Below, one piece after another: positions 14,395 through 63,040 of a DNA stretch of 64,000 nucleotides (positions are counted from its first letter, which is position 1; each line of letters starts with the position of its first letter). The notes beneath the pieces are model-generated. The model made no database searches, had not been told where the DNA came from, and saw only the letters and a program-made list of their open reading frames with translations. The DNA is taken from positions 73,350 through 137,349 of the forward strand of contig CAZTYE010000005.1 of the NCBI GenBank assembly GCA_964617645.1, given 5' to 3'. Origin of the DNA: an uncultured Ignavibacteria bacterium (lineage in GTDB: Bacteria > Zixibacteria > MSB-5A5 > CAIYYT01). Position numbers and translations under genes: made by a program.

Positions 14395-14554
14395 TCCCGA
14401 CCTTTGGTCGGGACGCGCGCAGCGTCATCAGACGGGGAATCTTCAAATGGGTTCGGGCAGAGTTGCGCTGCCGATCCCGACCTTTGGTCGGGATGCACAC
14501 AGCGTCATCAGGCCGGGAAATTTCAAATGGGCTCGGGCAGAGTTGAACTGCCGA
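14395..14554. repeat. Two tandem 80-bp units; each is a copy of the tRNA-Ile 3' end (T-arm + acceptor) plus ~53 nt of its 3' flank
   Basis: Units 14395..14474 and 14475..14554 align base for base: TCCCGACCTTTGGTCGGGA...CAAATGGG(T/C)TCGGGCAGAGTTG(CG/AA)CTGCCGA. The second unit supplies the real tRNA 3' end. Confidence 0.75.
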
Positions 14555-14601
14555 CCTCGCGCTTATCAGGCGCGCGCTCTAACCAACTGAGCTACGAGCC
14601 C
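14528..14601 (-). tRNA. tRNA-Ile (anticodon GAT)
   Basis: The reverse complement folds as a cloverleaf: acceptor GGGCTCG/CGAGCCC, D-arm GCTCAGTTGGTTAGAGC, anticodon stem CGCGC/GCGCG with loop CTGATAA, T-arm GGCAGTTCAACTCTGCC. Confidence 0.85.
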
Positions 14602-14893
14602 AGGAATAGGGAATGCCAAAGTACCAATCGACTTGAACTTGTCAATAAGATTTTCCTCGTTCCTGAAAGGCAAAGCCGGCGAATCTCATCGATCCACCGG
14701 CTTGTTGGGTGAGTGGAGGGATTATGACCAAACCCGCAATAGGGGGTAATCAGGGTAAAAGCTCTCGCGGCTAATCTGACTAATGGAGCAACTGAACTTG
14801 AGCCGCTTAGTCGCCTTTACACTGGGGAAGACGCACCGCCGGAAATGGTGTTTAATCCGTTCGCGAAAAATCTGGGTTTCGTATATTCGAGTC

Positions 14894-18538: not shown

Positions 18539-18611
18539 GGGGATGTAGCTCAGTTGGGAGAGCGGCGGCTTTGCAAGCCGTAGGTCGTCGGTTCGAACCC
18601 GATCATCTCCA
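18539..18611 (+). tRNA. tRNA-Ala (anticodon TGC)
   Basis: 73-nt cloverleaf: acceptor GGGGATG/CATCTCC with G3:U70, anticodon loop TTTGCAA, T-loop TTCGAAC. Confidence 0.9.
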
Positions 18612-19300
18612 GGACGAGTAAGACCGTAAGGTCTTCAGATAGATGTGACAAGCTTGTTTCCCGCGTCGTCGGGAAAGTCACGATCTTTGACAACTAAATA
18701 TCAGAGCCGATGCGGATCGAAACCAGCGTGACTACAGAGATCGAGCTTTTAGGATTTCGATCAAGTTAATAAGAGCATACGGCGGATGCCTTGGCATCAA
18801 GAGGCGATGAAGGACGTGGTAAGCTGCGATAAGCCTCGACTAGGAGCAAACATCCTTTGAGTCGGGGATTTCCGAATGGGGCAACCCAGTGCCGCGAAAG
18901 CGGTATCTATCGCATACTGAATTCATAGGTATGCGAGGCGAACGGGGAGAACTGAAACATCTCAGTACCCCCAGGAAGAGAAAACAACCGTGATTTCCTG
19001 AGTAGCGGCGAGCGAAAGGGAAAGAGCCTAAACCGACGGGTACGTTAAAGCGGATACGCGTTGTACCTTCGGTGTAGCGGGGTCTGTTCGGACCGAAGTG
19101 TCCATAGGTCGGTAAGTCAAAAACCGTTTGTTTAGTCGAATACGCCTGGAAAGGCAAACCAGAGACGGTGACAGTCCGGTAGACGAAAAACAAACGACTT
19201 ACTCGAATGGATTCCCAAGTAACTCGGAGCACGAGAAATTCTGAGTGAATCTGTCGAGACCACTCGATAAGGCTAAATACTCCTTGATGACCGATAGTGA

Positions 19301-19332
<32 letters not shown>

Positions 19333-20475
19333 GCTGACGCGGAGTGAAATAGTACCTGAAACCGTGTGCTTACAAGCTGTGGGAGGAAGAGATGTCCTTC
19401 GGGATGTCTGGACTGACCGCGTGCCTATTGAATAATGACCTAGCGAGTTACTCCTCGGTTGCAAGGTTAAGGCAAACACTGCCGGAGCCGTAGCGAAAGC
19501 GAGTCTTAAACGGGCGTTTAGTAGCCGGGGGTAGACCCGAAGCCAGTTGATCTATGCATGGCCAGGATGAAAGGCCGGTAAAACGGTCTGGAGGTCCGAA
19601 CTCACCGCTGTTGAAAAGGCGGGGGATGAGCTGTGCATAGGGGTGAAAGGCCAATCAAAACTGGAAATAGCTGGTTCTCCCCGAAATAGCTTTAGGGCTA
19701 GCCTCGTGTTAAAGTGTGACGGAGGTAGAGCACTGAATTGGCTAGGGGGCCTACAAGCCTACCGAACCGAATCAAACTCCGAATGCCGTCGACATGTTCC
19801 ACGGGAGATAGTCTACGAGGGATAAGCTTCGTAGGCGAAAGGGAAACACCCCAGACCGCCGGCTAAGGTCCCTAATCAGAGCTAAGTGACAAAGGATGTG
19901 GAATTACTGAAACAGCTAGGATGTTGGCTTAGAAGCAGCCATTCATTTAAAGAGTGCGTAATAGCTCACTAGTCTAGTGATTCTGCGCCGATAATAAACG
20001 GGACTAAGCTTTGCACCGAAGCCGCGGACTTCCTGCCGCAAGGCAGGATTTGGTAGGGGAGCATTCTGTTGTAGTGCGAAGGTGTCGCGACAAGCGATGC
20101 TGGACGAATCAGAAGAGATTATGCTAGGACGAGTAGCGATAAAACAGGCGAGAAACCTGTTCACCGTAAACCTAAGGGTTCCTGAGGAAGGTTAATCCGC
20201 TCAGGGTTAGTCGGATCCTAAGTTCAGGCCGAAAGGCGTAGATGATGGAAAGCAGGTCAATATTCCTGCACCAGGTGTGAAGCGTTTGAGCTATGGGGTG
20301 ACGCAGTCGTGAAAGAGCAGCCGGCCGATGGATGCCGGTCCAAGCAGGTAGGCGGATCGCACAGGAAAATCCGTGCGGTCAACGCCGAGATGTGACGGGG
20401 AAATGAGTCTTCGGACAAACCAACTGCTCCTAATCATACTGCCGAGAAAAACCTCTCTGCAAGCAACACATCTGT

Positions 20476-20509
<34 letters not shown>

Positions 20510-20995
20510 ATATCCTAAGGTGCTCGAGCTAACCCACGTTAAGGAACTAGGCAAAGTGGCCCCGTAACTTCGGAAGAAGGGGTGCTCCTAAGTAGGTGTA
20601 GCGTACAGCGAAGCCGAATGGAGTCACAGTAAAGAGGCCTGGGTGACTGTTTACTAAAAACACATGTCTCTGCTAAGCCGTAAGGCGACGTATAGGGACT
20701 GACACCTGCCCGGTGCTGGAAGGTTAAGAGGAGGGGTCAGCTTTGATTTATCATTGCGAAGCTCTGAATCGAAGCCCCAGTAAACGGCGGCCGTAACTAT
20801 AACGGTTCGAAAACGTTCCTTTCTTTCGATTCGCGATCCTTAATTCATCGGCTTTCAGCAATGAAAGCTTGTGATTATGGGCCGTTACAAAATCCGGCTA
20901 TATGCTGGAAACTCCGTGTATCTGACGCTACCCCGCCTTGGCGGGGTGACAATGCGCTCAGTGCGGACAACCAGCAGGAAAGATCAAGTCAGCTT

Positions 20996-21039
20996 GGGTG
21001 CCCCACAGACCTGTCCCGCTTTGCGGGATTGCGGTGGGA
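20996..21039. repeat. Hairpin repeat family B, copy inside the 23S insertion
   Basis: GGGTGCCCCACAGACCTGTCCCGCTTTGCGGGATTGCGGTGGGA, with nested inverted repeats CCACAG/CGGTGG and TCCCGC/GCGGGA. Confidence 0.7.
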
Positions 21040-21092
21040 AAACGTAAGCTGCTCGATATCCTCAGAGACTGTACGCCGGACGGATTTTCTCG

Positions 21093-21124
21093 GGTGCCCC
21101 ACAGCTTGCTGTGGGGTCAATGAG
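21093..21124. repeat. Hairpin repeat family A, copy inside the 23S insertion
   Basis: GGTGCCCCACAGCTTGCTGTGGGG, palindrome CCCACAG-CTTG-CTGTGGG. Confidence 0.7.
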
Positions 21125-21264
21125 AGATCTAAAGATACAGTCCGAACTTCATGGCGACATGAAGAGTGCGGCAGAAATGACCGCACCCATTGCCTCGATC
21201 CGAACATCGGTCAAGTGATAGAGACGCTTGACCACAAACGTGATCTTGCATTGAGTAACAACTG

Positions 21265-21320
<56 letters not shown>

Positions 21321-21573
21321 AACTTGGGCGCTGTCTCAACGTGGGACTCGGTGAAACTGTAGCAGCGGTGAAGATGCCGCTTACCCGCATCGGGACGAAA
21401 AGACCCCGTGGACCTTTACTATAACCTGGCATTGGTATTTGGACGGGCATGTAGAGCATAGGTGGGAGGCTTTGAAGCTGGGGCGCTAGCCTCGGTGGAG
21501 CCATCAGTGGAATACCACCCTTGTTCTTTCGGATATCTAACCTTGACCCCTGAATCGGGGTGAGGAACACTGC

Positions 21574-21606
<33 letters not shown>

Positions 21607-21824
21607 CAAAGAGTAACGGAGGCGTACAAAGGTTGACTCAGGCTGTTTGGTAATCAGCTGTAGAGCGCAAGGGTATAAGTCAGCTTAACTGCGAGACGTA
21701 CATGTCGAGCAGGTACGAAAGTAGGTCCTAGTGATCCGGCGGTTGTGCGTGGAAATGCCGTCGCTTAACGGATAAAAGGTACCCCGGGGATAACAGGCTG
21801 ATCTCCTCCGAGAGTTCACATCGA

Positions 21825-21888
<64 letters not shown>

Positions 21889-22327
21889 CTGGCTGTTCGC
21901 CAGTTAAAGTGGTACGTGAGCTGGGTTTAGAACGTCGTGAGACAGTTCGGTCTCTATCTGATGCGGGCGTAGGAGATTTGCGGGGAGTTGACCCTAGTAC
22001 GAGAGGACCAGGTCGAACGGACCGCCAGTAGACCAGTTGTCGCGCCAGCGGCATGGCTGGGTAGCTGTGTCCGGTAGGGATAAGCGCTGAAGGCATCTAA
22101 GTGCCAAGCCCACCCCAAGATTAGATCTCCCTGACGTAAGTCCTAAAGGCTCCTGGAAGATGACCAGGTGATAGGTCACAGATGCAAGCGCTGCGAGGCG
22201 TTCAGTCGAGTGATACTAATTGGCCGTGAGACTTGATCTATAAATTTGTCGGCGGGGCGAGAGCATCAAACTCACCCCATCCCGATAAATCTTGATCCAA
22301 GTACGTCAAACTCTTCGGTGGCCCACA

Positions 22328-22349
22328 GCTTGCTGTGGGAAATTCGAAG
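22328..22349. repeat. Family A hairpin in the 23S–5S spacer
   Basis: CTTCGGTGGCCCACAGCTTGCTGTGGG. Confidence 0.7.
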
Positions 22350-22461
22350 GTTCAAGGGACTACAGTGATCAATCGCAATCCAAAAAGCTTCTCTGATCGC
22401 GTTGCTTCGATCCACATCGGCTTCTGATATTTGGTGATAAATTTCGCCATCCTTTCCGACT

Positions 22462-22575
22462 TGTCATTCCGGCGAAAGCCGGAATCCAGGTTTCGCCCGT
22501 CATTCCCGCGCAGGTTGAGCGCGACGAAATCCCGCGCTTCAGCGGGACGGGAATCCAGCGGAGTCGGGAAGAGAA
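22462..22575. repeat. Composite RS3-like stem-loop repeat (family E variant) in the 23S–5S spacer
   Basis: GTCATTCCGGCGAAAGCCGGAATCC...CATTCCCGCGCAGG...CCCGCGCTTCAGCGGGACGGGAATCCAGCGG. Related to the units at 61.7 and 63.1 kb, with the first module inverted. Confidence 0.6.
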
Positions 22576-22591
22576 TAGGCAACCGAATTTT

Positions 22592-22707
<116 letters not shown>

Positions 22708-22785: not shown

Positions 22786-23085
22786 ATGACACCGAAAATT
22801 GCCATTCCGCAGGCGCAGATCGAGGACTTCTGCCGCCGGCATCACATCAAACGCCTCGCGTTGTTTGGATCCGTGTTGCGCGACGACTTCACGCCCGAAA
22901 GCGACGTCGATGTGCTGGTCGTCTTTGAGGAGGGTAAAACGCCGGGATTGGAATTCATCACCATGCAAGATGAACTTTCGGAGCTGCTTGGGCGCAAGGT
23001 CGATCTGAACACCGAGCAGTCCCTGAGTCCCTATTTCAAGAAACGTGTGTTGAACAGCCTGATGGTGCTCCATGAGCGAACGTGA
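22786..23085 (+). CDS. Nucleotidyltransferase-domain protein, MntA-type antitoxin
   Basis: Using the internal ATG at 22786 avoids overlap with the rRNA terminator. GS-x9-DxD motif (LFGSVLRDDFTPESDVDVLVVF) and typical ~100-aa size. Confidence 0.7.
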   Translation: MTPKIAIPQAQIEDFCRRHHIKRLALFGSVLRDDFTPESDVDVLVVFEEGKTPGLEFITMQDELSELLGRKVDLNTEQSLSPYFKKRVLNSLMVLHERT

Positions 23086-23225
23086 CGAATACACTCCAAA
23101 GCGCGAAACCAGGCGCTTTCCAAACCAGTACTAATCCACCGTGCCCGATCGTAACTCGGGTTTCTACTGCTCCTAACTCGTCGACAATATATCACCTCCG
23201 TTCAATCGCTTTCCGCACGAATGCT

Positions 23226-23353: not shown

Positions 23354-23365
23354 CATCGTTGCCGC

Positions 23366-23417
23366 GGGTGCCCCACCGACCTGTCCCGCCCTGCGGGATT
23401 GCGGTGGGATTAGACTC
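23366..23417. repeat. Family B hairpin repeat
   Basis: GGGTGCCCCACCGACCTGTCCCGCCCTGCGGGATTGCGGTGGGATTAGACTC. Confidence 0.7.
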
Positions 23418-27093: not shown

Positions 27094-27250
27094 GCGGCGA
27101 AGTCTGATTACCCTAAGTCCCGTATGTCAGGAGCCCCACGCTCCTGACGCCTTACCGTAGACGCGGTTAGCGCGCGCGACCACGCGAAATTCACCCCGGC
27201 TTGACCCTTCGACTCGACTCCGAATTTCCTCTTGTCCCCACATCGTCAAC

Positions 27251-27268
27251 TTGTGATAATCATCACAA
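27251..27268. promoter_or_regulatory. 18-bp perfect palindrome TTGTGATAATCATCACAA, 20 nt upstream of dapF; candidate operator with a Fur-box-like core
   Basis: The TGATAATCATCA core resembles the central Fur-box TGATAATCATTA. Confidence 0.3.
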
Positions 27269-27288
27269 GGCGGGCAGGGAAGAGGCGT

Positions 27289-28131
27289 ATGCGCATTGCA
27301 TTCCACAAGTACCATGCCCTCGGTAACGACTTTGTAGTCATCGATCAGGCTAAACTTAACCCACGAGTTTTCGGCAAACTCGCGCGCGCCATCTGCGATC
27401 GCCACCGCGGTGTCGGCGCCGACGGTTTGCTCATCTGCCTTGTAGCGGGGAAAATACCACAGATGCGCATCATCAATGCTGACGGCTCCGAGGTCGAAAC
27501 TTCCGGCAACGGGCTACGCATCCTCGCGGCGCACTTGACCCGAACGAAGAAAGTGCGCGCGCCGCGCTTCCTGATCGAAACAATGAAAAGCGTTAGCGAA
27601 GTTCGGATTATTAGATCATCCGGCAATACTGCAACCGTCGCCGCCGCCCTACAGCCGGCCGATTTTCGCACTGCATCGCTGCCGATGAAAATTGGCACGC
27701 CGCACTTCGTCGGGCGGCCGCTGCGCACGGAAGCCGGCGATTTAATCGCCACCGCCGTTTCCGTCGGCAATCCGCATTGCGTGTTCTTCGTTGATAACTA
27801 CGACTTCGATTGGCAATCGTACGGCCGTGCGGTCGAGACCGATTCCCGATTTCCCAAGCGCGTCAATGTCGAGTTCGCGCGTGTGCGCTCACGCCGTCGG
27901 GTCGAAGTTCGGCTCTGGGAGCGCGGCGTTGGCGAAACCGATTCGTCCGGCACCGGAGCAGCGGCGGTCGTCGCCGCGGGAATCATCATGGGCCTGCTCG
28001 ATCGCCGTGTCAAAGTCGAATCGTCTGCCGGCGCTCTGGATATCTCCATCCCGACGCTGGACGCCCCGATTCAAGTCACCGGGCCGGTTACCTACATCGC
28101 TTCGGGCGAGTTTGAATATTCAACTTCGTGA
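27289..28131 (+). CDS. dapF: Diaminopimelate epimerase
   Basis: MRIAFHKYHALGNDFVVID N-terminus; second catalytic-Cys region GNGLRIL; ~280 aa. Confidence 0.9.
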   Translation: MRIAFHKYHALGNDFVVIDQAKLNPRVFGKLARAICDRHRGVGADGLLICLVAGKIPQMRIINADGSEVETSGNGLRILAAHLTRTKKVRAPRFLIETMKSVSEVRIIRSSGNTATVAAALQPADFRTASLPMKIGTPHFVGRPLRTEAGDLIATAVSVGNPHCVFFVDNYDFDWQSYGRAVETDSRFPKRVNVEFARVRSRRRVEVRLWERGVGETDSSGTGAAAVVAAGIIMGLLDRRVKVESSAGALDISIPTLDAPIQVTGPVTYIASGEFEYSTS

Positions 28132-29408
28132 AACGCATCATTGCCGACTACATCGCTGACATCAAACTGATTCAGCGCAACATTTACCTGTTCGTCGGGG
28201 GCTGTTTACTGATCGGCCTCTTGCAAGCCGCCATGTCGCTGCTGATGAATCTCTACCTCAAGGACATCGGCTACGGCGAGGCTTTTATCGGTCGCACGCT
28301 TTCGATCAACTCTCTTGGCGCCGTCGTTGCCGGATTGCCGGCTGCGTATCTCGCCGCCCGCTACAAGATTAAACCGATCCTGCTGATATCGACGGTGCTG
28401 GTCGCGGCAGCGTTCTATCTGATGGGTCATGCCGACACCGAATGGCTCATTCTCTCCGGCGCGTTTTTTTTCGGCTTCTTTACGTCCGTCCGCGGTGTGA
28501 TCTCCGCGCCCTTCATCATGCGCAACACCGGCGAGACTGAACGCATGCTGGTCTTCACGATGAATTACTCAACTTGGATGGTCGCCGCTATCATCGGTTC
28601 CTACCTCGGCGGCTGGCTGCATGATCTCTTCTACGAGTTGTATCGCGCGACCGCCGCCGCCGTTGCGCTTGAGCAGGCCGCCTATCAGGGCGCGATGACG
28701 ATCATGACCTTCATCGGCTTGCTCTCGTTGATTCCGTTTTTCTTCATCAAGGCCAAAGCCCCGGCTCCGGGTGAAGCCGCCAAAGCGTTTTCGTGGCCGA
28801 TGCTCAAGGGCAATGGCGTGCTGCTTTTCAAACTCAATCTTCCGTTCCTCTTGCTCGGTACCGGCGCTGGACTTATCATCCCGTTTCTCAATCTCTATTT
28901 TCGCAATCGCTTTCACCTCGACACGGTGCAAATTGGCGTTTACTTCTCGATTCTCAGTGTCGTCATGCTCATCGCCGTCGCCTTGGTGCCGATTCTCAAG
29001 CGCAAACTCGGCTTCATCCGCACTGTCGTCATGACCGAGATTGCGTCGATTCCATTCATGATGATCCTCTGCTTCACCGATTCCGTCAATCTGGCATTCT
29101 GGGCGTTCCTCTTTCGCGGCGCGCTGATGAACATGGGTAGTCCGGCATCGACCGGCTTCATGATGGAGGCCGTGCCGCCGGAATTGCACGGCATCATCAA
29201 TTCGCTATCCGCTACCGCCTGGACCGTCTCCTGGGCAATCACCGCCCCGATCGGCGGCGCCTCGATCGAGCGTTCCGGTTTCGTGCCGGTTTTTCTCTGG
29301 GCGATTGCGCTGTATATCGCATCCGCAGCCTCCTACTATTATTTCTTCGGTCGCGTCGAGTCGCGGCAAGAAGGGAAATGGAAACTCGACATCTCCCGCA
29401 TGCGCTAA
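28128..29408 (+). CDS. MFS transporter
   Basis: 426 aa, 12 predicted TM helices. GTG start overlaps the dapF stop. Confidence 0.8.
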   Translation: MKRIIADYIADIKLIQRNIYLFVGGCLLIGLLQAAMSLLMNLYLKDIGYGEAFIGRTLSINSLGAVVAGLPAAYLAARYKIKPILLISTVLVAAAFYLMGHADTEWLILSGAFFFGFFTSVRGVISAPFIMRNTGETERMLVFTMNYSTWMVAAIIGSYLGGWLHDLFYELYRATAAAVALEQAAYQGAMTIMTFIGLLSLIPFFFIKAKAPAPGEAAKAFSWPMLKGNGVLLFKLNLPFLLLGTGAGLIIPFLNLYFRNRFHLDTVQIGVYFSILSVVMLIAVALVPILKRKLGFIRTVVMTEIASIPFMMILCFTDSVNLAFWAFLFRGALMNMGSPASTGFMMEAVPPELHGIINSLSATAWTVSWAITAPIGGASIERSGFVPVFLWAIALYIASAASYYYFFGRVESRQEGKWKLDISRMR

Positions 29409-29448
29409 AAGCGGTTGTTCGCCGCCAAAAATCTGATATATACGACTC

Positions 29449-31161
29449 GTGAGCACGCTCGATATCAAACAGAAAATCGCCGAACTGATCGCGCCTTCCG
29501 TCGGCATCGATGCCGCTGAGATCGTCTCATTCTTCGAGCTGCCCAAGGACACTTCCCACGGCGATTTGGCGCTGCCGTGTTTTCGATTCGCTAAGCAGCT
29601 CAAGAAAGCCCCGCCGGCGATCTCTGCCGAGTTACACAAATCGCATTTCACCGGGGCGCTGCCTACTGGTGTCGCTAAAGTCAATCCGGTTGGCGGCTAC
29701 TTGAACTTCTTCATCGAGACAAGCTCCATCGTCACCGACTCATTGCGGGCAGTGCTGAGGCAGGGTTCCGGTTTCGCCGCTACTGGCGAAGGCGTCGGCA
29801 AGACCGTTGTCGTCGAGTATTCGTCGGTCAACATCGCCAAGCCATTCGGCATCGGCCATCTGCGCACGACCGTCATCGGCGCGGCGTTGGCGCGGATTCA
29901 TGCCAAACTCGGCTACAATGTCATCCGCATCAACCACCTCGGCGATTGGGGCACACAATTCGGCAAAGTCATCGCCGGTTTCAAACGTTGGGGAAGCGAA
30001 TACGTCTTCACCGAGAAGCCGATCATGCGGCTCTACGAAATCTATGTTCGTTTCCACGCGGAGGCCGAGAAAGACCCCAGCCTTGAAGCCGAAGGGCGGG
30101 AGGAATTCCGCAAGCTCGAGCAGGGAGACCCGGAGAATCTCGATCTCTGGAAGCGCTTCATCGACTACAGCATGATCGACTTCAATCGCATCTACAATCT
30201 GCTGCATGTCGAGTTCGACTACAACACCGGCGAGTCGTTCTATCGCGACAAGATGGACGCCGTAATCGCGAAGCTTGAGGCCAGAGGGCTACTCAAGATT
30301 AGTCAAGGCGCGAGCGTCGTCGATCTCGAGGAGTTCGGCATGCCGCCTTGCCTGATCAGGCGCTCCGACGATGCCTCGCTTTACGCCACCCGCGATCTGA
30401 CTGCGCTTCTGTACCGCAAGGCGACGTTCAATTTCGCCAAGATGCTTTACGTCGTTGGTGCCGCGCAGGCACTGCACTTTCGCCAGTTTTTCAAAGTCGC
30501 TGAACTGATGGGCAACGACTGGATCAAAGAAGTCTTGCATATCGAATTCGGTTGGATCAAGTTTGACAATCAGATGATGTCCACCCGCCAGGGCACGATC
30601 ATATTCCTCGACGATGTCCTCGACGAAGCCCGCTTCCGCGCCAAAGCCGTGATCATGGAAGTCAATCCCGAGCTGCCCAACCTCGATTGGACTGCCGAGC
30701 GCATCGGCGTGGCGGCGATTATTTTTGGACAACTTCGCGTGCGGCGCAACAAGGACATCAACTTTGTCTGGGACGAAGCCCTCACTTTTCGCGGCGAAAC
30801 CGGCCCGTACCTGCAATACACTCACGCGCGGCTCACTTCGCTGATGCAAAAGTACGGCAAGTCACTGCCCGACCTCGATGCCGACTTCTCCGGCTTCGAT
30901 GACGAGGAGAAGCAGATCATCAAGCTTTTCGAACTCTACCCGCAGAAGCTCCGTCTCGTGACGGAACTCTATGAGACCAATATCCTCACCGACTACCTCA
31001 TCGACTTAGCCGGCGCCTTCAACAGCTACTGGCAGCGCATCCGCATCATCTCCGATGATGAGCGCCTGACCCGTGCCCGAATGCAAATGGCGTTTGCCGT
31101 CCGCACCATCATCGCCGACGGTCTCCGGTTGCTCGGTATCGAACCTTTGGAGCGAATGTAA
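29449..31161 (+). CDS. argS: Arginine–tRNA ligase
   Basis: 570 aa. Class I HIGH-type motif (NIAKPFGIGHLRTTVIG) and a C-terminal DALR-type anticodon-binding region. Confidence 0.9.
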   Translation: MSTLDIKQKIAELIAPSVGIDAAEIVSFFELPKDTSHGDLALPCFRFAKQLKKAPPAISAELHKSHFTGALPTGVAKVNPVGGYLNFFIETSSIVTDSLRAVLRQGSGFAATGEGVGKTVVVEYSSVNIAKPFGIGHLRTTVIGAALARIHAKLGYNVIRINHLGDWGTQFGKVIAGFKRWGSEYVFTEKPIMRLYEIYVRFHAEAEKDPSLEAEGREEFRKLEQGDPENLDLWKRFIDYSMIDFNRIYNLLHVEFDYNTGESFYRDKMDAVIAKLEARGLLKISQGASVVDLEEFGMPPCLIRRSDDASLYATRDLTALLYRKATFNFAKMLYVVGAAQALHFRQFFKVAELMGNDWIKEVLHIEFGWIKFDNQMMSTRQGTIIFLDDVLDEARFRAKAVIMEVNPELPNLDWTAERIGVAAIIFGQLRVRRNKDINFVWDEALTFRGETGPYLQYTHARLTSLMQKYGKSLPDLDADFSGFDDEEKQIIKLFELYPQKLRLVTELYETNILTDYLIDLAGAFNSYWQRIRIISDDERLTRARMQMAFAVRTIIADGLRLLGIEPLERM

Positions 31162-31163
31162 TC

Positions 31164-32486
31164 ATGAAACTCAGGCGTCCGCGCGAATATGAACTGGTCC
31201 TCGAACCGGTCACCGATCTTCAAACCGCGATTGCCGCAATGACCCTTGCGACTCTCAAGGCCACGCCCACGACACTGCGCAACATCGAACGCACCGCGCT
31301 GGTCGCCGCCTTCGAGCCGTTGCTCGAGTCGGGTGGCGCGCAGCTTGCTTGGGACGGCTTCACCGTAACCGTTTCCCGGCCTGAGCGCCGTCCGTTTCGC
31401 CTTCTACAACCGTTGCCGGCGCATGAGCACTGGTGCTACGCGCTGGTTCTGGCCGCGACTCAAATCGGGAGCGAGATCGTAGTGCCGAACGAGTTCGACG
31501 AGACATTACAGAATATCGTGCTCGCGCTGCGGCGCATGGGCGCGGAACTCGAGTTCACTCATGCGGATCAACCACGCTTGGTTGTTCATAAGGCGATTGA
31601 CCGCGGTATCAAATATCACTTCAAGCGCGAAAGCGCCAAGATCGCGGCGCCGGTGATCGTCGCCGCTGCGGCGCTGAGCACGGAATCGGAGTTCAACGAT
31701 CTTTTCGAATCGAACCGCCTCGACTACCTTTTCGAGTCATTGATATCGCGTTATCGCCGCGAGGATCTCACTAAGTCGAAAGTGGATGACGAACTTGAAC
31801 GGAGATTGCAGAGGCGGCAGCCGAAAGTCTCTGAATTCAAATCCCGCGTCGTTGTGCCCGGAGGCTTGTCGCCGGACGCTGCCGAAATCTCATTGCGTCC
31901 CGATGCTGAATTGGCCGCTTACTTGGCTGCTGCAGCTCTGAATCACCCGAAAGGGAAATTGGTCTTGCAGCGCGTTCACGTCGATGACCTGACTTCAACA
32001 CCATTATCGCAATTGCGCCGCATGGGCGCCGACATTCAGAGCCAGAAAGGCAGTGGTGGTTCGGACTTGACTGTCTCGCGCTCCGAGGTTAAATCCCGAA
32101 GCATTCACTACGATCAGTTACACGACTACCCCGACGCGATCGGCGCGCTGGCACTGGCCAACGCTCGCACCGACGGCACAGCGGTAGTCCGCTCTTCGCC
32201 GTTTAATACGCAGCGCGAAGAATCCCGTCGCAACCGCATCTGCGCGGCGATGCGCGCGCTCGGCGTCAAGGTCGCCGAAATCAGCGACGGCGTAGTAATC
32301 GAGGGCCGCAGCGAATTGTCCGGCCAGATCATCGATACCGGTGGCGACCCGATTTGCGAACTGATGGCCTTGGCCGCCGTTCTGGGGCCGGTGCGGGAAG
32401 TCGAAGTCGACTCCGTCGCCGGCGGCAAAGCGCGCTGGGGAGAAAACTTCTCTCGCGCCCTGAACTTGGTCGCCGCATCCGAATAG
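31164..32486 (+). CDS. Hypothetical protein with a divergent enolpyruvyl-transferase (EPSP synthase/MurA-like) fold
   Basis: LRRMGADIQ...GSGGSDLTVS...DYPDAIGALALANARTDGTAVV...DPICELMALAAVLGPVREVEVD parallels AroA LRxMGA...DHRIAMAFAVAGL. Confidence 0.4.
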   Translation: MKLRRPREYELVLEPVTDLQTAIAAMTLATLKATPTTLRNIERTALVAAFEPLLESGGAQLAWDGFTVTVSRPERRPFRLLQPLPAHEHWCYALVLAATQIGSEIVVPNEFDETLQNIVLALRRMGAELEFTHADQPRLVVHKAIDRGIKYHFKRESAKIAAPVIVAAAALSTESEFNDLFESNRLDYLFESLISRYRREDLTKSKVDDELERRLQRRQPKVSEFKSRVVVPGGLSPDAAEISLRPDAELAAYLAAAALNHPKGKLVLQRVHVDDLTSTPLSQLRRMGADIQSQKGSGGSDLTVSRSEVKSRSIHYDQLHDYPDAIGALALANARTDGTAVVRSSPFNTQREESRRNRICAAMRALGVKVAEISDGVVIEGRSELSGQIIDTGGDPICELMALAAVLGPVREVEVDSVAGGKARWGENFSRALNLVAASE

Positions 32487-32506
32487 TTGATTGCCGCCAC
32501 GAGCCC

Positions 32507-33865
32507 ATGACCGAGAACTTCATCAACATCACCGAAGGCTCAATCCCACGTCAAGTTATCCGGCTGGCCTGGCCGGCCGTAAGCGCCATGTTCTTGCGCA
32601 CGGCGCTCACCATCACTGATGCCATTTGGGTTGGTCGTCTCGGCGCCGAGCCGATGGCCTCGGTCATCAGTTCGATGTTCGTCATTTGGATTCTCTTTAG
32701 CCTGTTTGATATCGTCTGGACCGGCTCGGTCGCCGTCATCGCACGCTTTTACGGCGCCCGTCAATTCGACACCTGTTCTCACGCCGCAAGGCAGGCGGTG
32801 TTGATTGGCGTTGTTGGCGGATTCCTGATCGCGATCGTCGGATTCCTCACGGCGCGATGGACTTTCGAAATCATGCAGACTGCGGCTGTCGTCACCGACT
32901 ACGGCACGACCTATCTCCGCATCTTCTTCATCGGAGCGGTTCCGCTGGTACTGGAGGAACTTTTTGCTGCCATGTTTCGTGCCTCCGGCGATACCCGCAC
33001 ACCGCTGATGATTTCCGGGGCCATCACGGCGCTGAACATCGTCCTCGATCCGCTGCTGATCTTCGGCATCGGGCCGTTCCCGCGTCTTGAAGTTGCCGGC
33101 GCTGCCATTGCCACCGCGCTTGCCTATTTCGTCGGATTCCTGCTCTACCTCTGGGTGATCAAGCGCGGCCGACTCACGGTGAAATTCCGCTGGACGCGTG
33201 ATGTGCGCTTTGACATGAGCATGATCTGGCAAATGATCAGAATCGGTTCGCCGCTGGCCGCAGCCGGGGTGATTTTCTCGGTCGTCTATCTCTTCATGAA
33301 CCGCATCACGGCCACCTTCGGCACCGAGGCTGTCGCGGCGCTGGGAATCGGCAATCGCTGCGAGTCGCTCTCTTATCTCGGATGCTTTGGTTTCTCCATC
33401 GCCGTAGCCACCCTGGTCGGCCAGAATTTGGGCGCCGGCAAACCCGACCGCGCCGCCAAATCTGTTTGGTATGCGTTGCTTTTTACGGGCATATTCACCG
33501 CGATCATCTCGGCGGGATTCCTTACGATTCCGCGTCTGATCTCGTCTGCCTTCATTGATGATCCGAAGGTGATTCAGATCGCCGCCGATTATCTGATCAT
33601 TCTCGCGCTCTCGCAGGTGTTTATGGCGGTGGAGATCGTCCTGGAGGGCGCATTTTCCGGCGCCGGCGATACGTTGCCGGCCATGACCGTCTCCGTGCTC
33701 GGATCGTTTGCGCGCGTACCGCTCGCCGACTATATTTGCCACGATCTCGGCGTCGGCGTCAACGGCGTCTGGTGGTCGATCACGTTGACGACGATTGTGA
33801 AAGGCACGATTCTCATTATCTGGTTCAGTCGTGGCAAATGGAAACACAAGCAGCTCCATTCATGA
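32507..33865 (+). CDS. MATE-family efflux transporter
   Basis: ATG at 32507 (MTENFINITEGSIPRQVIRLAWPAV...). 12 TM helices. Confidence 0.8.
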   Translation: MTENFINITEGSIPRQVIRLAWPAVSAMFLRTALTITDAIWVGRLGAEPMASVISSMFVIWILFSLFDIVWTGSVAVIARFYGARQFDTCSHAARQAVLIGVVGGFLIAIVGFLTARWTFEIMQTAAVVTDYGTTYLRIFFIGAVPLVLEELFAAMFRASGDTRTPLMISGAITALNIVLDPLLIFGIGPFPRLEVAGAAIATALAYFVGFLLYLWVIKRGRLTVKFRWTRDVRFDMSMIWQMIRIGSPLAAAGVIFSVVYLFMNRITATFGTEAVAALGIGNRCESLSYLGCFGFSIAVATLVGQNLGAGKPDRAAKSVWYALLFTGIFTAIISAGFLTIPRLISSAFIDDPKVIQIAADYLIILALSQVFMAVEIVLEGAFSGAGDTLPAMTVSVLGSFARVPLADYICHDLGVGVNGVWWSITLTTIVKGTILIIWFSRGKWKHKQLHS

Positions 33866-33979
33866 CACCGTCCGTTTGCGACATAATACTAACCGCTCCG
33901 CAAATTGCGTATCCAACCGCGGGCGCGAATTTATTCGCGCAACGCGCCAAAGGCGCGTCCCTTAGTGAGGGGTAAACCG

Positions 33980-34918
33980 ATGCCTCGCGTCGCCTACATC
34001 ACTCATCCCGACTGCCTGCTCCACACCTGTGACGGCCACCCCGAACATGCCGGCCGCCTCAGCGCAATCGACCAAGCGATTCGCGAATCGGGGCTGATTT
34101 TCCAGATGATCGAACTCCAGTCGCGCCCGGCCAGCCTCGATCAACTGTGCCTGAACCACTCGCTGGATTACGTCGAGTCGATTTTGCATCTCAAGATCGA
34201 TGGGCTACGATTACTCGATGCCGACACTTACGTCAATCAACACTCGACCCGCGCCGCGTTGCTCGCTTACGGTGCGGGAATTCTGGCCGTCGAGAAAATC
34301 ATGCACGGCGATATCGACCGCGCTTTCTGCGCCGTGCGGCCGCCGGGGCATCATGCCGTCCCCGACCGCGCTATGGGCTTCTGCTTGTTTAACAACATCG
34401 CCGGGGCGGCCCGCTTAGCTCTTGAGTACGAGCTCGTCGAGCGCGTCGCGATACTCGACTTCGACGTTCACCACGGCAACGGCACGCAGGCCGCATTCTA
34501 CAACGACGGTCGCGTGCACTTTACCAGCCTGCACCAATTTCCGTATTATCCCGGCTCGGGCGGTGCCAACGAGCGTGGCGCCGGCGCCGGCAACAATCGT
34601 ACTCTTAACATCCCTCTCGAAGCCGGCACCGAAGGTCACAAAGCGCTCAAGCTCGCCGAAGAGATGTTCACCGCCGCAATGAACGACTTCAGGCCGAACC
34701 TGATTCTCATTTCCGCCGGCTTCGATGCCCACAAGGACGACCCGTTGGCGGCGCTTCGCTTTGACGATTCTGACTATTTCAAAATCACTCGCCTCATCGT
34801 CGACAATGCCAGGCGTCACTGTCAAGGGCGCGTGATCTCGTTTCTGGAGGGCGGCTACAATCTTGAAGCTCTGGCGCGATCCGCTTGCCAGCATGTGAAA
34901 GGACTGCTCGATGATTAG
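33980..34918 (+). CDS. Histone deacetylase-family protein (AcuC/AphA-like)
   Basis: ATG at 33980. HDAC motifs RPPGHHA, DFDVHHGNGTQ, YYPGSG. Confidence 0.8.
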   Translation: MPRVAYITHPDCLLHTCDGHPEHAGRLSAIDQAIRESGLIFQMIELQSRPASLDQLCLNHSLDYVESILHLKIDGLRLLDADTYVNQHSTRAALLAYGAGILAVEKIMHGDIDRAFCAVRPPGHHAVPDRAMGFCLFNNIAGAARLALEYELVERVAILDFDVHHGNGTQAAFYNDGRVHFTSLHQFPYYPGSGGANERGAGAGNNRTLNIPLEAGTEGHKALKLAEEMFTAAMNDFRPNLILISAGFDAHKDDPLAALRFDDSDYFKITRLIVDNARRHCQGRVISFLEGGYNLEALARSACQHVKGLLDD

Positions 34919-35684
34919 AAAATACTGCCGCGTCGAATTTCGCTCGCGCGCCTGCTGGGGTCTGGTCGACGGCGACATGATTCGTATGATTGAAGGCGAA
35001 CCCTACGGTACCCACGGTATTACTGCCGACCGCATGCCCCTCGCCGGGGCGCGACTACTTCCGCCGGTAACGCCGACCAAAATCGTTTGCGTCGGCCTGA
35101 ACTACGCCGATCACGTCAAAGAGAGCCAATCGGCCAAAGAAGTCCCCGCCGAGCCGGTCACCTTCATGAAGCCGCTCACCGCCCTGATCGGCCCTGAAGA
35201 CACAATCATCCTGCCGCGAGCGTCGCAGCGTGTCGACTACGAAGCTGAAATCGGCATCGTCATCGGCAAGGCTTGCAGAAAGGTCGCGCCTGAACGCGTA
35301 CCGGAACACATCTTCGGCGTCACCTGTGTCAACGATGTCACCGCCCGCGATCTACAGAAGAAGGATGTCCAATGGACGCGCGGGAAAGGCTTCGACACTT
35401 TCTGCCCGTGTGGGCCGTTCCTGATTTCAGGGCTGGATTACCTTGCGCTCAACGTGCAGTCGCGCTTGAACGGGGAAGTCCGGCAATCCGGCAATAGCCG
35501 TCAGATGATCTTCCCGATCCCAACCTTGATTAGCTTCATGAGTCATGTCATGACGCTCAACGTTGGCGATTTGATCGTAACCGGCACGCCTGAAGGCGTC
35601 GGTCCGATGGCCGATGGCGATGTTGTGGAAATCGAGGTCGAAGGCGTCGGCATCTTGCGAAACACCGCGCGACGCGAATCCTAA
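34911..35684 (+). CDS. Fumarylacetoacetate hydrolase (FAH)-family protein
   Basis: KIVCVGLNYADH...DYEAEIGIVIGK...GTPEGVG motifs. Overlaps the HDAC gene by 8 nt. Confidence 0.8.
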   Translation: MIRKYCRVEFRSRACWGLVDGDMIRMIEGEPYGTHGITADRMPLAGARLLPPVTPTKIVCVGLNYADHVKESQSAKEVPAEPVTFMKPLTALIGPEDTIILPRASQRVDYEAEIGIVIGKACRKVAPERVPEHIFGVTCVNDVTARDLQKKDVQWTRGKGFDTFCPCGPFLISGLDYLALNVQSRLNGEVRQSGNSRQMIFPIPTLISFMSHVMTLNVGDLIVTGTPEGVGPMADGDVVEIEVEGVGILRNTARRES

Positions 35685-35815
35685 TCGATCACCACCGAAC
35701 CACATCACAACCCCGCGACATTCACGCTGCAGGCTAACGGCGCCAATTCACTCGCATCGCGTAGCTCAATCATTTTCTCAATTGTCCAATCTCCTGCAAC
35801 ATATAATCTATTGCC

Positions 35816-58749: not shown

Positions 58750-58766
58750 GTTTGCTTTGGTCGCTT

Positions 58767-58790
58767 CGGTGCCCCACAGCTTGCTGTGGG
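58767..58790. repeat. Family A hairpin repeat, directly after pckA
   Basis: GCTTCGGTGCCCCACAGCTTGCTGTGGG. Confidence 0.7.
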
Positions 58791-59063
58791 TTCGTCGATA
58801 TGTCCTGTGCGCGGCTGACGCCCACGTCGGCCACGTGAGATTAGGGAGCGCATTGTGGTGACGTGTACGAAGCGTGCGGAGGCTATTGTCATTTTGGCGA
58901 AAGCCGACAGGCGATTTGACGATAATGTCGGGTGCCAAGCGGCACTGAGAGCTTAACTCGGGCGATTGAGTTCAACGTAATATCATTGACAAAATTCTAC
59001 ATCAATCTCAAAGTAATGATCAAAAATACCATCACATGAGTGAAGAGAGTTTGGAGCAAAAAA

Positions 59064-60980: not shown

Positions 60981-60990
60981 AGTGCGCGTG

Positions 60991-61039
60991 TGTACCACCG
61001 TGCAGTCCCGCCTTGCCGGATTGCGGTGGGATTAGACTC
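60991..61039. repeat. Family B hairpin repeat, directly after the low-GC gene
   Basis: TGTACCACCGTGCAGTCCCGCCTTGCCGGATTGCGGTGGGATTAGACTC. Confidence 0.7.
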
Positions 61040-61180
61040 TGATTGAGGCACTCATCCCCAATCTCGAACTGCCTTCTTCGTGGAGCACGAAAGCGGACTT
61101 GCGTGTCCCCAACAGTCAACGCCTCACATTAAATTCTGCCGTGCTTTGGGCATCACGCCGCAGGCGTCGTCGAAAAATCA

Positions 61181-61238
61181 ACCCTCATCCCCAACCCCTC
61201 TCCCTGACAGGGAGAGGGGCAAGGGGAGAGGGTCGCGC
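61181..61238. repeat. Family F palindromic repeat (CCCTCTCCCTGACAGGGAGAGGGG core), upstream of the DUF559 gene
   Basis: CCCTCATCCCCAACCCCTCTCCCTGACAGGGAGAGGGGCAAGGGGAGAGGGTCG. Confidence 0.7.
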
Positions 61239-61267
61239 ATCATTCCAAGAATCGTTATCTTACATTG

Positions 61268-61633: not shown

Positions 61634-61660
61634 GCGGAAGTGGGGCAGGGAGAGGGTCGC
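61608..61660. repeat. Family F repeat variant overlapping the DUF559 3' end
   Basis: CCCTCACCCCCAACCCCTCTTCCTAAGCGGAAGTGGGGCAGGGAGAGGGTCG. Confidence 0.65.
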
Positions 61661-61665
61661 GAGTC

Positions 61666-61900: not shown

Positions 61901-61911
61901 GTGAGCCCAAT

Positions 61912-62055: not shown

Positions 62056-62056
62056 C

Positions 62057-62953: not shown

Positions 62954-63040
62954 GCGTATGTCCTCCTACCCTGAAGGGACGCAAATGTAGACGAATTGTG
63001 CAACGCCGATTTGTGGATACGCTTGCCGAAGGCGAGTCCA

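What the first reader, a model, noticed from the sequence alone, without database searches (positions are those of the whole stretch)
20807..21264. 458-nt ORF-less insertion in 23S at the E. coli ~1917-equivalent site, carrying dispersed hairpin repeats
The universally conserved string ACTATAACGGT|CCTAAGGTAGCGAAATTCC is interrupted. The upstream exon ends in U and the insert ends in G, as in group I introns. The site corresponds to a known bacterial group I intron site (the L1917-type site reported in Coxiella). No homing-endonuclease-like ORF is present. Unusually, the insert contains copies of hairpin families A and B, which also occur in the 23S–5S spacer and in intergenic regions. So it is either a self-splicing intron decorated with mobile hairpins, or an RNase III-excised intervening sequence that leaves fragmented 23S at the helix 69–71 region.
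Basis: partly seen in the sequence, partly recalled or inferred. Interest (0 to 1): 0.7.

Follow-up and report, generated by a model that had tools for sequence, protein, structure and literature searches.

The report
Hairpin-decorated group I intron in 23S
The 458-base insert in the 23S rRNA gene is a genuine group I self-splicing intron with no endonuclease gene, one of a widespread bacterial family at position 1923; two of its outer loops have picked up small hairpin repeats that are scattered through the host genome, which is a curiosity and not a new kind of element.

Summary
Window 20807-21264 (458 nt) interrupts ACUAUAACGGU|CCUAAGGUAGCG. The exon ends in U and the insert ends in G. No endonuclease ORF is present. 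Two hairpin families inside the insert recur in the 23S-5S spacer and in intergenic DNA.

The site is L1923 (E. coli numbering), not L1917.

The insert is a group I intron:
- Rfam RF00028 scores 59.7 bits against a gathering score of 50.
- A 7-bp P1 with a U·G pair at the splice site is present.
- P3-P9.1, including the P3/P7 pseudoknot, are supported by covariation across 55 homologous bacterial L1923 introns (94% of cells paired versus 32-43% in slid controls; 37 of 60 pairs show compensatory changes).

Longer relatives carry a LAGLIDADG gene in L6, as published for chloroplast IB4 introns homologous to C. eugametos intron 5. This copy has no such gene. Hairpin family A sits in L6 and family B in L8. 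The third hairpin (P5b) is native to the intron.

Relatives with the same long-L1 form, in Zixibacteria and Ignavibacteria-type genomes, carry other GC-rich hairpin repeats in the same outer loops. The RNase III intervening-sequence reading is rejected. Splicing itself is inferred, not shown.

Verdict: new member of a known kind, modest interest.

The parts
20800..20806 (+). 5' exon strand of P1 (UAACGGU); U20806 corresponds to U1923, the 5' splice site
   Evidence: Pairs with 20881-20887. U·G at the splice site in 55 of 55 homologous introns. Numbering.
20807..21264 (+). Group I intron, 458 nt, no endonuclease ORF, L1923 site (IB4-like family)
   Evidence: Rfam RF00028 59.7 bits versus gathering score 50. 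Homologous to 54 bacterial L1923 introns. Structure covariation. MFE z-score -7.6.
20807..20880 (+). Unusually long L1 (74 nt between the 5' splice site and the guide sequence). It holds a conserved 5' block (20807-20840) and a variable hairpin (20851-20868).
   Evidence: Shared only with the subfamily L002, L100, L102, L124-L134. The hairpin varies in sequence but keeps its stem between members. The role of the conserved block is unknown.
20881..20887 (+). Internal guide sequence GCCGUUA (3' strand of P1). GG at 20879-20880 can pair with CC of the 3' exon as a weak P10.
   Evidence: GGCCGTT is near-invariant in the family.
20893..20898 (+). P3 5' strand (pairs with 21075-21080)
   Evidence: 5 of 6 pairs show compensatory changes; 96.6% of cells paired.
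20903..20976 (+). P4-P5-P5a-P5b domain: P4 20903-08/20971-76; P5 20913-17/20963-67; P5a 20922-28/20954-61; P5b 20930-37/20940-47
   Evidence: P5 5 of 5 pairs and P5a 7 of 7 pairs show compensatory changes; P4 is invariant. P5b is native and not a dispersed repeat.
20977..21061 (+). P6 (GG/CC 20977-78 with 21060-61) extended by an intron-specific stem CAGCUU/AAGCUG that carries the hairpin family A element
   Evidence: In relatives L6 holds either a short hairpin or the LAGLIDADG ORF.
20993..21047 (+). Hairpin family A copy: a nested hairpin with outer stem CCCACAG/CGGTGGG and inner stem TCCCGC/GCGGGA, sitting in L6
   Evidence: Direct-repeat family D6 with 23363-23417 and 60985-61039. Pattern count 3 versus 0 expected. 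Absent at this position from all relatives.
21067..21072 (+). P7 5' strand (pairs with 21137-21142). The invariant pair G21067-C21142 is the candidate guanosine-binding pair.
   Evidence: GC in 55 of 55; two pairs show compensatory changes; crosses P3 as a pseudoknot. The guanosine-binding assignment is inferred.
21082..21130 (+). P8 (21083-91 with 21122-29, one bulged U) capped by the hairpin family B element
   Evidence: 5 of 5 basal pairs show compensatory changes. MFE.
21089..21116 (+). Hairpin family B copy (CTCGGGTGCCCCACAGC TT GCTGTGGGG), sitting in L8
   Evidence: Family D12 with 22313-22339 and 58764-58790. Pattern count 3 versus 0 expected. Absent at this position from relatives.
21147..21164 (+). 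P9, 7 bp, with a GCGA (GNRA-type) tetraloop
   Evidence: 6 of 7 pairs show compensatory changes; the loop GGCGAC is near-invariant.
21166..21186 (+). P9.1 with the conserved loop CAGAAAUGA
   Evidence: 6 of 6 pairs show compensatory changes.
21187..21263 (+). Variable 3' terminal domain (hairpins near 21197-21209 and 21210-21233) followed by the family-conserved GAGUAACAAC
21264..21264 (+). Terminal G (omega G), the 3' splice site
   Evidence: Sequence. The last intron base is G in 53 of 55 family members; L018 and L104 end in A.
22313..22340 (+). Family B copy in the 23S-5S spacer
58764..58791 (+). Family B copy just downstream of the PEPCK gene
23363..23417 (+). Family A copy downstream of the 5S gene and the nucleotidyltransferase ORF
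60985..61039 (+). Family A copy just downstream of the ORF at 59040-60980

Best explanation
Window 20807-21264 is a group I intron without an endonuclease gene, inserted after U1923 at the 3' base of helix 69 of the 23S rRNA. The host is a Gram-negative bacterium, probably related to Zixibacteria.

After transcription, the guide sequence GCCGUUA (20881-20887) pairs with the exon end UAACGGU to form P1, with a U·G wobble at the splice site. The P3-P9 core folds, including the P3/P7 pseudoknot. An external guanosine bound in P7 attacks the 5' splice site. The terminal G21264 then takes its place, and the freed exon end attacks the 3' splice site. This rejoins ACGGU-CCUAAGG to give an intact 23S rRNA.

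The intron belongs to a large bacterial L1923 family. The longer members carry a LAGLIDADG homing endonuclease gene in loop L6; this copy has none and so is probably immobile. Two of its outer loops, L6 and L8, have secondarily acquired copies of the host genome's own dispersed GC-rich hairpin repeats (families A and B). These are positions where extra sequence does not disturb the ribozyme core.

Shown here: the boundaries, family membership, the covariation-supported structure, and that the hairpins are lineage-specific additions shared with intergenic DNA. Inferred: that splicing actually occurs, the mechanism by which the hairpins arrived, and the IB4 subgroup label.
For: - Rfam RF00028 hit at 20831-21164: 59.7 bits against a gathering score of 50, E=1.3e-12 in the 64-kb search.
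- The boundaries are unambiguous and restore the universal ACGGU-CCUAAGG sequence.
- P1 is 7 bp plus a 2-bp extension, with U·G at the splice site; RNAalifold recovers it on its own.
It returned 54 inserts at exactly this site, all with the same GGCCGTT guide sequence, core and ...GTAACAANNTG end. They come from Acidimicrobiia, Acidobacteriota, Chloroflexota, Gemmatimonadota, Ignavibacteria, Armatimonadota, Omnitrophota, Chlamydiales, Pirellulaceae and others.
- On the 55-sequence alignment, my P1-P9.1 structure has 94.0% of cells paired versus 32-43% when partners are slid. 37 of 60 pairs have compensatory changes. None of 500 shuffles reached the observed value on any of the five measures.
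- Every family-invariant column is kept in the window copy.
- MFE folding recovers P4-P6, P8, P9 and P9.1, with z = -7.6.
- Long relatives encode PF00961 LAGLIDADG_1 (E=1e-26) starting in P5'/P4' and filling L6. This matches the published layout of a chloroplast IB4 rrl intron homologous to C. eugametos intron 5 (PMC1513399). Archaeal LSU/1923 introns are also classed IB4 (PMC6125680).
- Families A and B lie in L6 and L8, are absent there in all relatives, and recur in intergenic DNA of the window. They are absent from all 134 other loci fetched.
- Subfamily relatives carry different hairpin repeats in L1, L5b, L6, L8 and L9.x, while L102 (356 nt) and L131 (364 nt) are nearly bare.
Against: - There is no RNA-level evidence of splicing.
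- The Rfam score is only about 10 bits above the gathering score.
- The guide sequence lies 74 nt from the 5' splice site, which is unusually far, and P10 is weak (GG/CC plus scattered pairs). Folding may therefore need help from host proteins.
- A paper title in the literature describes the Simkania L1931 intron as unspliced (cited in PMC11270868), so a conserved structure does not guarantee removal.
- The IB4 label rests on literature for the same site and the same ORF placement, not on a subgroup model run here.
- The LAGLIDADG proteins of relatives are closest to I-OnuI-type chains in the PDB. I-CeuI is not among the top 60 matches.
- No target-site duplication or transposase was identified for the hairpins.
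- That inserts are found only in loops could reflect selection and not targeting.
Confidence: 0.85

Rival explanations
1. An intervening sequence is cut out by RNase III without religation, leaving a 23S rRNA fragmented into pieces of about 2.0 and 0.95 kb.
For: 23S intervening sequences exist in many bacteria (cited in PMC11270868 and PMC4990558). The insert is rich in stable hairpins.
Against: The insert has a complete group I core that passes Rfam's gathering score. Compensatory changes occur in P3, P5, P5a, P7, P8, P9 and P9.1. U·G at the splice site is invariant and the terminal G is near-invariant. The insert's 5' and 3' ends do not pair with each other to form the long stem that RNase III needs. 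The insertion point is inside the conserved helix 69-71 strand, not at the tip of a variable helix. The intervening-sequence positions I recall (helices 9, 25 and 45) are elsewhere; that comparison rests on my own knowledge.
Confidence: 0.02
2. The insert is a group I intron that is no longer an efficient ribozyme. Either it is retained in mature 23S rRNA, or it is removed only with host protein help. The accumulated hairpins and the long L1 would be signs of decay after loss of the endonuclease.
For: There is no endonuclease ORF. L1 is 74 nt and P10 is weak. Two foreign hairpins have been added. A published title describes an unspliced bacterial 23S intron (Simkania, cited in PMC11270868). 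The Thermotoga intron needs its LAGLIDADG protein as a maturase at high temperature (PMC3984707).
Against: All family-invariant core positions are intact and every helix pairs in the window copy. The additions lie only in terminal loops. By inference, a 458-nt structured RNA retained at the base of helix 69, on the subunit interface, should be strongly harmful to what may be the only 23S gene. Several independent lineages of the same subfamily maintain introns without an ORF.
Confidence: 0.1
3. The insert is an assembly or binning artefact: an intron-bearing rRNA fragment from another organism was joined into this contig.
For: rRNA operons are often misassembled in metagenome-derived genomes. 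One relative appears under two taxon labels (L010 and L029 are identical).
Against: The intron carries hairpin families A and B, which recur in unique intergenic DNA of the same window up to 40 kb away. They occur in none of 134 other loci, so the intron belongs to this genome. The flanking exons are continuous with a full-length 23S.
Confidence: 0.02

Closest known systems
Chloroplast IB4 introns in rrl with a LAGLIDADG ORF in L6 (Scenedesmus So.rrl.1, stated homologous to Chlamydomonas eugametos intron 5, the I-CeuI intron)
   Same: Group I intron in the large-subunit rRNA gene. The published layout is subgroup IB4 with a LAGLIDADG ORF in L6 (PMC1513399). The bacterial relatives found here show the same layout. 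That intron 5 sits at position 1923 is from my own knowledge.
   Different: The window copy has no ORF. The host is a bacterium. The LAGLIDADG proteins of the bacterial relatives match I-OnuI-type chains best and not I-CeuI. Direct sequence homology to the chloroplast introns could not be tested with these tools.
Archaeal LSU/1923 group I introns, classed IB4 (Nawrocki, Jones and Eddy 2018, PMC6125680)
   Same: Identical insertion site and similar sizes: about 280-340 nt without an ORF and about 690-760 nt with one.
   Different: Different domain of life. No dispersed-hairpin decoration is reported for them.
Characterised bacterial 23S group I introns: Coxiella Cbu.L1917 and Cbu.L1951, Thermotoga and Simkania L1931, cyanobacterial introns (papers cited as refs 27-30 in PMC11270868; site names from my own knowledge)
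   Same: Group I introns clustered in the helix 69-71 and peptidyl-transferase region of bacterial 23S rRNA. Some have lost their endonuclease gene.
   Different: The site differs: L1923 is 6 nt from L1917 and 8 nt from L1931. The papers I read did not name L1923 for bacteria outside the Candidate Phyla Radiation, yet genome data show it is common.
The 'MITEtron': a group I intron in dsrA of Candidatus Thiomargarita nelsonii that carries a genome-wide MITE in its P9 region (PMC4853749)
   Same: A bacterial group I intron whose outer region holds a copy of a short non-coding repeat that is dispersed across the host genome.
   Different: Here the host gene is rRNA. The passengers are short hairpins of about 27-50 nt, not a classic MITE with terminal inverted repeats and direct repeats. 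Two loops are occupied, and the pattern recurs with different hairpin families across a whole intron subfamily.
REP/BIME-type intergenic palindromic repeats (named from my own knowledge)
   Same: Families A and B are short, GC-rich, imperfect palindromes with a conserved 5' flank (GGGTGCCCCAC). They are found mostly just downstream of genes.
   Different: No RAYT-type transposase or target motif was identified. Only three copies of each family are visible in 64 kb.

Membership tests
Group I intron (Rfam RF00028) | Scores at or above the curated gathering score of the family covariance model | tested here: met
   59.7 bits versus 50, full-length model match 1-253. The minimal relative L102 scores 58.4.
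Group I intron (Rfam RF00028) | P1 formed by the 5' exon end and an internal guide sequence, with a U·G wobble at the 5' splice site | tested here: met
   UAACGGU pairs with GCCGUUA. U·G in 55 of 55 family members. RNAalifold predicts P1 independently.
Group I intron (Rfam RF00028) | Conserved core P3-P4-P5-P6-P7-P8-P9 with a P3/P7 pseudoknot, supported by covariation | tested here: met
   94% of cells paired versus 32-43% in slid controls; 37 of 60 pairs compensatory; none of 500 shuffles reached the observed values.
Group I intron (Rfam RF00028) | Terminal guanosine (omega G) at the 3' splice site | tested here: met
   G21264. The last base is G in 53 of 55 family members.
Group I intron (Rfam RF00028) | Guanosine-binding G-C pair in P7 | tested here: inconclusive
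   G21067-C21142 and C21069-G21140 are invariant in 55 of 55. Which pair binds guanosine is inferred, not shown.
Group I intron (Rfam RF00028) | Self-splicing by two transesterifications that yields ligated exons | not testable with these tools
   Needs RT-PCR or in vitro splicing.
Subgroup IB4 (L1923 type) | Best match to the IB4 subgroup-specific model or structural signature | not testable with these tools
   Rfam holds only the generic model. The label is inferred from literature on the same site (PMC6125680) and on the IB4 chloroplast rrl intron (PMC1513399).
Subgroup IB4 (L1923 type) | Insertion after U1923 of large-subunit rRNA, with a LAGLIDADG ORF in L6 when one is present | tested here: met
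   Site. Relatives' ORFs are PF00961 and lie in L6. The window copy itself has no ORF.
RNase III-processed 23S intervening sequence | Replaces the tip of a variable helix; its ends pair into a long processing stem; it has no ribozyme core | tested here: not met
   The site is in a universally conserved strand. The ends do not pair with each other. A ribozyme core is present.
Dispersed hairpin repeat (REP- or MITE-like), for families A and B | Several near-identical copies at unrelated genomic sites, far more than chance | tested here: met
   Three copies of each family in 64 kb, with zero matches in 100 shuffles.
Dispersed hairpin repeat (REP- or MITE-like), for families A and B | Signs of transposition: target-site duplication, a cognate transposase (for example a RAYT), or presence/absence polymorphism | tested here: inconclusive
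   No direct repeats flank the intron copies by eye. No transposase search was done. The only evidence of gain is absence from homologous loops in other species' introns.

The most novel reading that the evidence does not exclude
In this intron subfamily (Zixibacteria, Ignavibacteria and related hosts), the terminal loops of a ribozyme may be preferred landing sites for each host's own hairpin repeats, and not merely tolerated ones. Family A is itself a hairpin nested in the loop of a family-B-like hairpin. This hints at an insertion mechanism that targets the loops of existing stem-loops in DNA or RNA. If so, these rRNA introns would be natural, alignable records of hairpin-repeat insertion events. 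They could be used to work out how such orphan repeats, which are abundant in uncultured bacteria, move.
Probability: 0.2. Interest if true: 0.55.

Novelty: new member of a known kind. Interest (0 to 1): 0.35.

Why it matters
Group I introns in the rRNA genes of bacteria outside the Candidate Phyla Radiation are still described as limited to a few species (PMC11270868). One capped scan here found the L1923 intron in at least 54 species-level genomes from about a dozen phyla. The window copy is therefore ordinary in kind, but it belongs to a population that is under-reported.

In practical terms, annotation pipelines and rRNA-based surveys will misjudge the length of such 23S genes.

The hairpin decoration adds a second bacterial example of dispersed repeats living inside a group I intron, after the Thiomargarita 'MITEtron'. 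The comparison across the subfamily shows where a ribozyme tolerates cargo: L1, L5b, L6, L8 and L9.x.

Tried and rejected
- **Source contig.** Exact look-ups of five window proteins found nothing on record. The host is identified only indirectly: PolA is 73-76% identical to a cluster of relatives, one of which NCBI labels Candidatus Zixiibacteriota.
- **Intron in the host's close relatives, through synteny.** The upstream TIG-domain protein has no close homologues (38% identity or less). DapF relatives keep the downstream gene order, but no rRNA operon lies next to it. Presence or absence of the hairpins within the host clade could not be tested.
- **Long-range partner for the conserved 5' block of L1.** Candidate pairings with the 3' tail in L102 are not conserved in L131, L002 or the window, so I dropped the idea.
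- **Pairing of the conserved GUAAC near the 3' end with GUUAC of the guide strand.** The MFE fold predicts it. It does not covary: introns with GGCCGUGGG guide strands keep GUAACAA. I did not adopt it.
- **Calling the relatives' endonucleases I-CeuI homologues.** PDB matches are I-OnuI-type, and I-CeuI is not in the top 60.
- **The istR match.** This Rfam hit in the same region scores 24.4 bits against a gathering score of 45 and is noise.
- **The 137-aa ORF spanning the intron.** It has no Pfam match. Its 'ADNQQER' stretch is simply the translation of the conserved P5'/P4' core, in the frame that relatives use to begin their endonuclease.

Full report
**Observation.** The window holds a full-length bacterial 23S gene (18759-22240, +) followed by a 5S gene (22591-22707). 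Inside the universally conserved string ACUAUAACGGU|CCUAAGGUAGCGAAAUUCC there is an insert of exactly 458 nt, window 20807-21264. Rfam's own 23S alignment shows a 460-nt insertion there. A pairwise alignment with E. coli 23S shows one 458-nt gap at that point. The exon ends in U (20806) and the insert ends in G (21264).

The T of ACGGT is residue 1922 of the 2903-nt annotated E. coli copy I fetched. In the standard 2904-nt numbering this is U1923. That assignment fits the 8-nt distance to L1931-type insertions seen in other loci and in PMC6125680. The site is therefore L1923, not L1917.

**No endonuclease gene.** The only long ORF (20861-21274, 137 aa) has no Pfam match at E<=1.

**It is a group I intron.** Rfam RF00028 matches 20831-21164 over the whole model at 59.7 bits, against a gathering score of 50. 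Reading the sequence gives these helices:
- P1: exon UAACGGU (20800-06) with GCCGUUA (20881-87), with U·G at the splice site
- P3: 20893-98 with 21075-80
- P4: 20903-08 with 20971-76
- P5: 20913-17 with 20963-67
- P5a: 20922-28 with 20954-61
- P5b: 20930-37 with 20940-47
- P6: 20977-78 with 21060-61
- P7: 21067-72 with 21137-42, which crosses P3
- P8: 21083-91 with 21122-29
- P9: 21147-53 with 21158-64, with a GCGA loop
- P9.1: 21166-71 with 21181-86
- terminal G at 21264

All of these pairs are standard in the window copy.

**Comparative support.** Fifty-four of those loci carry an insert at exactly this site that ends before CCTAAGGTAGCG. They share the GGCCGTT guide sequence, the core and a ...GTAACAANNTG end. 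They come from Acidimicrobiia and other Actinomycetota, Acidobacteriota, Chloroflexota, Gemmatimonadota, Ignavibacteria, Armatimonadota, Omnitrophota, Margulisiibacteriota, Chlamydiales, Pirellulaceae, 'Deltaproteobacteria' and one Peribacteria genome.

On the 55-sequence alignment, the structure above has 94.0% of cells paired. When the 3' partners are slid by 1-3 columns the figure is 32-43%. Thirty-seven of 60 pairs have compensatory changes. None of 500 shuffles reaches the observed value on any of the five measures. P3, P5, P5a, P8, P9 and P9.1 are each supported by compensatory changes in nearly all of their pairs. P4 and part of P7 are invariant. The window copy keeps every family-invariant column. 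RNAalifold on the 5' region predicts P1 on its own. A thermodynamic fold of the window intron recovers P4-P6, P8, P9 and P9.1, with z = -7.6.

**Family and subgroup.** Family members fall into two size classes: 274-371 nt without an ORF, and 670-804 nt with an ORF of about 180-220 codons. Two of these ORFs were tested and are Pfam LAGLIDADG_1 (E=1e-26 and 5e-17). The ORF begins inside the P5'/P4' strand, where the conserved GACAAUCAGCAGGAAAG translates as DNQQER, and it fills L6.

This is the layout published for the Scenedesmus chloroplast intron So.rrl.1: IB4, with a LAGLIDADG ORF in L6, and homologous to C. eugametos intron 5 (PMC1513399). Archaeal LSU/1923 introns are also classed IB4 (PMC6125680). 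I therefore call the family IB4-like, but I could not run a subgroup model. The relatives' endonucleases match I-OnuI-type chains best in the PDB, and I-CeuI is not among the top 60.

**What is unusual in this copy.**
1. The guide sequence lies 74 nt from the 5' splice site. This long L1 has a conserved 5' block (UCRAANACGU...GAUUCG) and a variable hairpin. It is shared only with a subfamily: L002, L100 (Zixiibacteriota) and L102 (Ignavibacteria) from genomes, and L124-L134 from metagenomes.
2. Two outer loops carry dispersed repeats. Family A (20993-47, in L6) recurs at 23363-23417 and 60985-61039. Family B (21089-21116, in L8) recurs at 22313-40 in the 23S-5S spacer and at 58764-91.

Both families share the 5' flank GGGTGCCCCAC. 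Family A looks like a family-B-type stem with a TCCCGC/GCGGGA hairpin nested in its loop. Neither sequence is present at the homologous loops of any relative, nor anywhere in the 134 other loci fetched. They were therefore gained in this lineage from the host's own repeat pool. The third perfect hairpin (20930-47) is the intron's native P5b.

The window as a whole is rich in hairpins. It has 31 perfect hairpins with a stem of at least 8 bp, against 1-10 in shuffles.

**The decoration is a subfamily habit.** The near-minimal members L102 (356 nt) and L131 (364 nt) contrast with L124, L127, L125, L134 and L002 (532-744 nt). The extra length in the larger members lies in L1, L5b, L6, L8 and the 3' domain. 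It consists of other well-formed GC-rich hairpins, such as CAAGGGGCTTTCAGCCCCTTG, GTAGGGGCACGGCTTGCCGTGCCC and TGTCATTCTGAGG...GAATGACA. One of these also occurs outside the intron in the same locus (L124). L125 and L129 differ from L127 and L132 mainly by an insert of about 190 nt in L5b.

Inserts are seen only in loops. That could mean loop-targeted insertion, or only that inserts elsewhere destroy the ribozyme and are lost. The data cannot separate these two readings.

A precedent exists. The dsrA group I intron of Ca. Thiomargarita nelsonii carries a genome-wide MITE (PMC4853749).

**Host.** The window encodes LptD, PolA, FtsK, PEPCK, ArgRS and DapF. PolA is 73-76% identical to a set of proteins, one cluster of which NCBI names Candidatus Zixiibacteriota. 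More distant hits, at about 54% identity, are also mostly Zixibacteria. The 23S exons are only about 80% identical to those of L002 and L102. The source contig itself could not be retrieved.

**Rivals.** An RNase III intervening sequence is rejected. The ribozyme core is present, the insert has no terminal processing stem, and the site lies in a conserved strand. An assembly chimera is unlikely, because the intron shares hairpin families with unique DNA of the same window.

The one serious reservation is functional: nothing here shows splicing. The long L1 and the weak P10 leave room for inefficient or protein-assisted splicing.

**Verdict.** This is a bona fide group I intron at L1923 without an endonuclease gene. 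It is a new member of a known and, in genome data, widespread family. Host hairpin repeats lodged in L6 and L8 are its one mildly novel feature.

Noticed in passing
window 14527-14602 (-), 18539-18611 (+), 18759-22707: The rRNA operon is split. No 16S gene lies in the 18.7 kb upstream of the 23S gene. tRNA-Ala(UGC) directly precedes 23S, but tRNA-Ile(GAU) lies 4 kb upstream on the opposite strand.
   Followed up: no
window 19035-19115: The 23S gene has an extra 81-nt segment in domain I relative to E. coli, at about position 274. There is also a 10-nt extension at 20746. The 81-nt segment is not obviously one of the dispersed hairpins.
   Followed up: partly
window 22241-22590: The 23S-5S spacer is long (350 nt) and packed with several hairpin repeat families, including ATTCCGGCGAAAGCCGGAAT, TCCCGCGCTTCAGCGGGA and family B.
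   Followed up: partly
window 61170-63530: A dense repeat field. A DUF559 (Vsr-like endonuclease fold) gene at 61265-61633 (Pfam E=3e-39) is flanked by CCCCTCTCCCTGACAGGGAGAGGGG hairpins. A 238-nt direct repeat lies at 61659-61896 and 63032-63269, and several other hairpin families are present.
   Followed up: partly
window 22786-23086: A small nucleotidyltransferase ORF (PF01909, MNT-like, a type often found as a toxin-antitoxin component) lies immediately downstream of the 5S gene.
   Followed up: partly
window 20807-20840 and loci L002, L100, L102, L124-L134: A conserved block of about 30 nt lies right after the 5' splice site (UCRAANACGUNCCYC...GAUUCG). It is specific to the long-L1 subfamily. 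No conserved pairing partner was found.
   Followed up: partly
window 21254-21264 and alignment A2 columns ~990-1044: A near-invariant GUAACAA lies 3-5 nt before the terminal G in almost all 55 L1923 introns. It is complementary to GUUAC of the guide strand but does not covary with it. Its role is unknown.
   Followed up: partly
L125:35-778 and L129:5731-6474 versus L127:7781-8335 and L132:1476-2030: These metagenome introns are otherwise nearly identical but differ by an insert of about 190 nt in L5b. The insert begins with a Shine-Dalgarno-like AGAGGTGATTATG and a short ORF. It is a presence/absence polymorphism within one intron lineage.
   Followed up: no
L018:346-1023, L104:2055-2753: Two L1923 family members (Margulisiibacteriota and Omnitrophota MAGs) end in A instead of the canonical terminal G. 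The title of the Coxiella paper cited in PMC11270868 likewise mentions an intron lacking the canonical omega G.
   Followed up: no
L010 and L029: Identical 753-nt L1923 introns appear under two different taxon labels, Acidimicrobiaceae and Spirochaetaceae MAGs. This is probably a binning error in one of them.
   Followed up: no
L043, L007, L017, L049: Other loci from the same scan show inserts 8 nt further on, after CCUAAGGU (L1931 type), or show sequence variants at C1924. Several neighbouring intron sites in helix 69-71 are therefore occupied across bacteria.
   Followed up: no
L135, L136 versus window 27232-39088: The gene order DapF-MFS-ArgRS-AroA-MurJ-deacetylase-FAA hydrolase-LptD is conserved in the host's relatives, but those relatives have no rRNA operon upstream of DapF. 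The 23S-5S unit sits at a lineage-specific location.
   Followed up: partly
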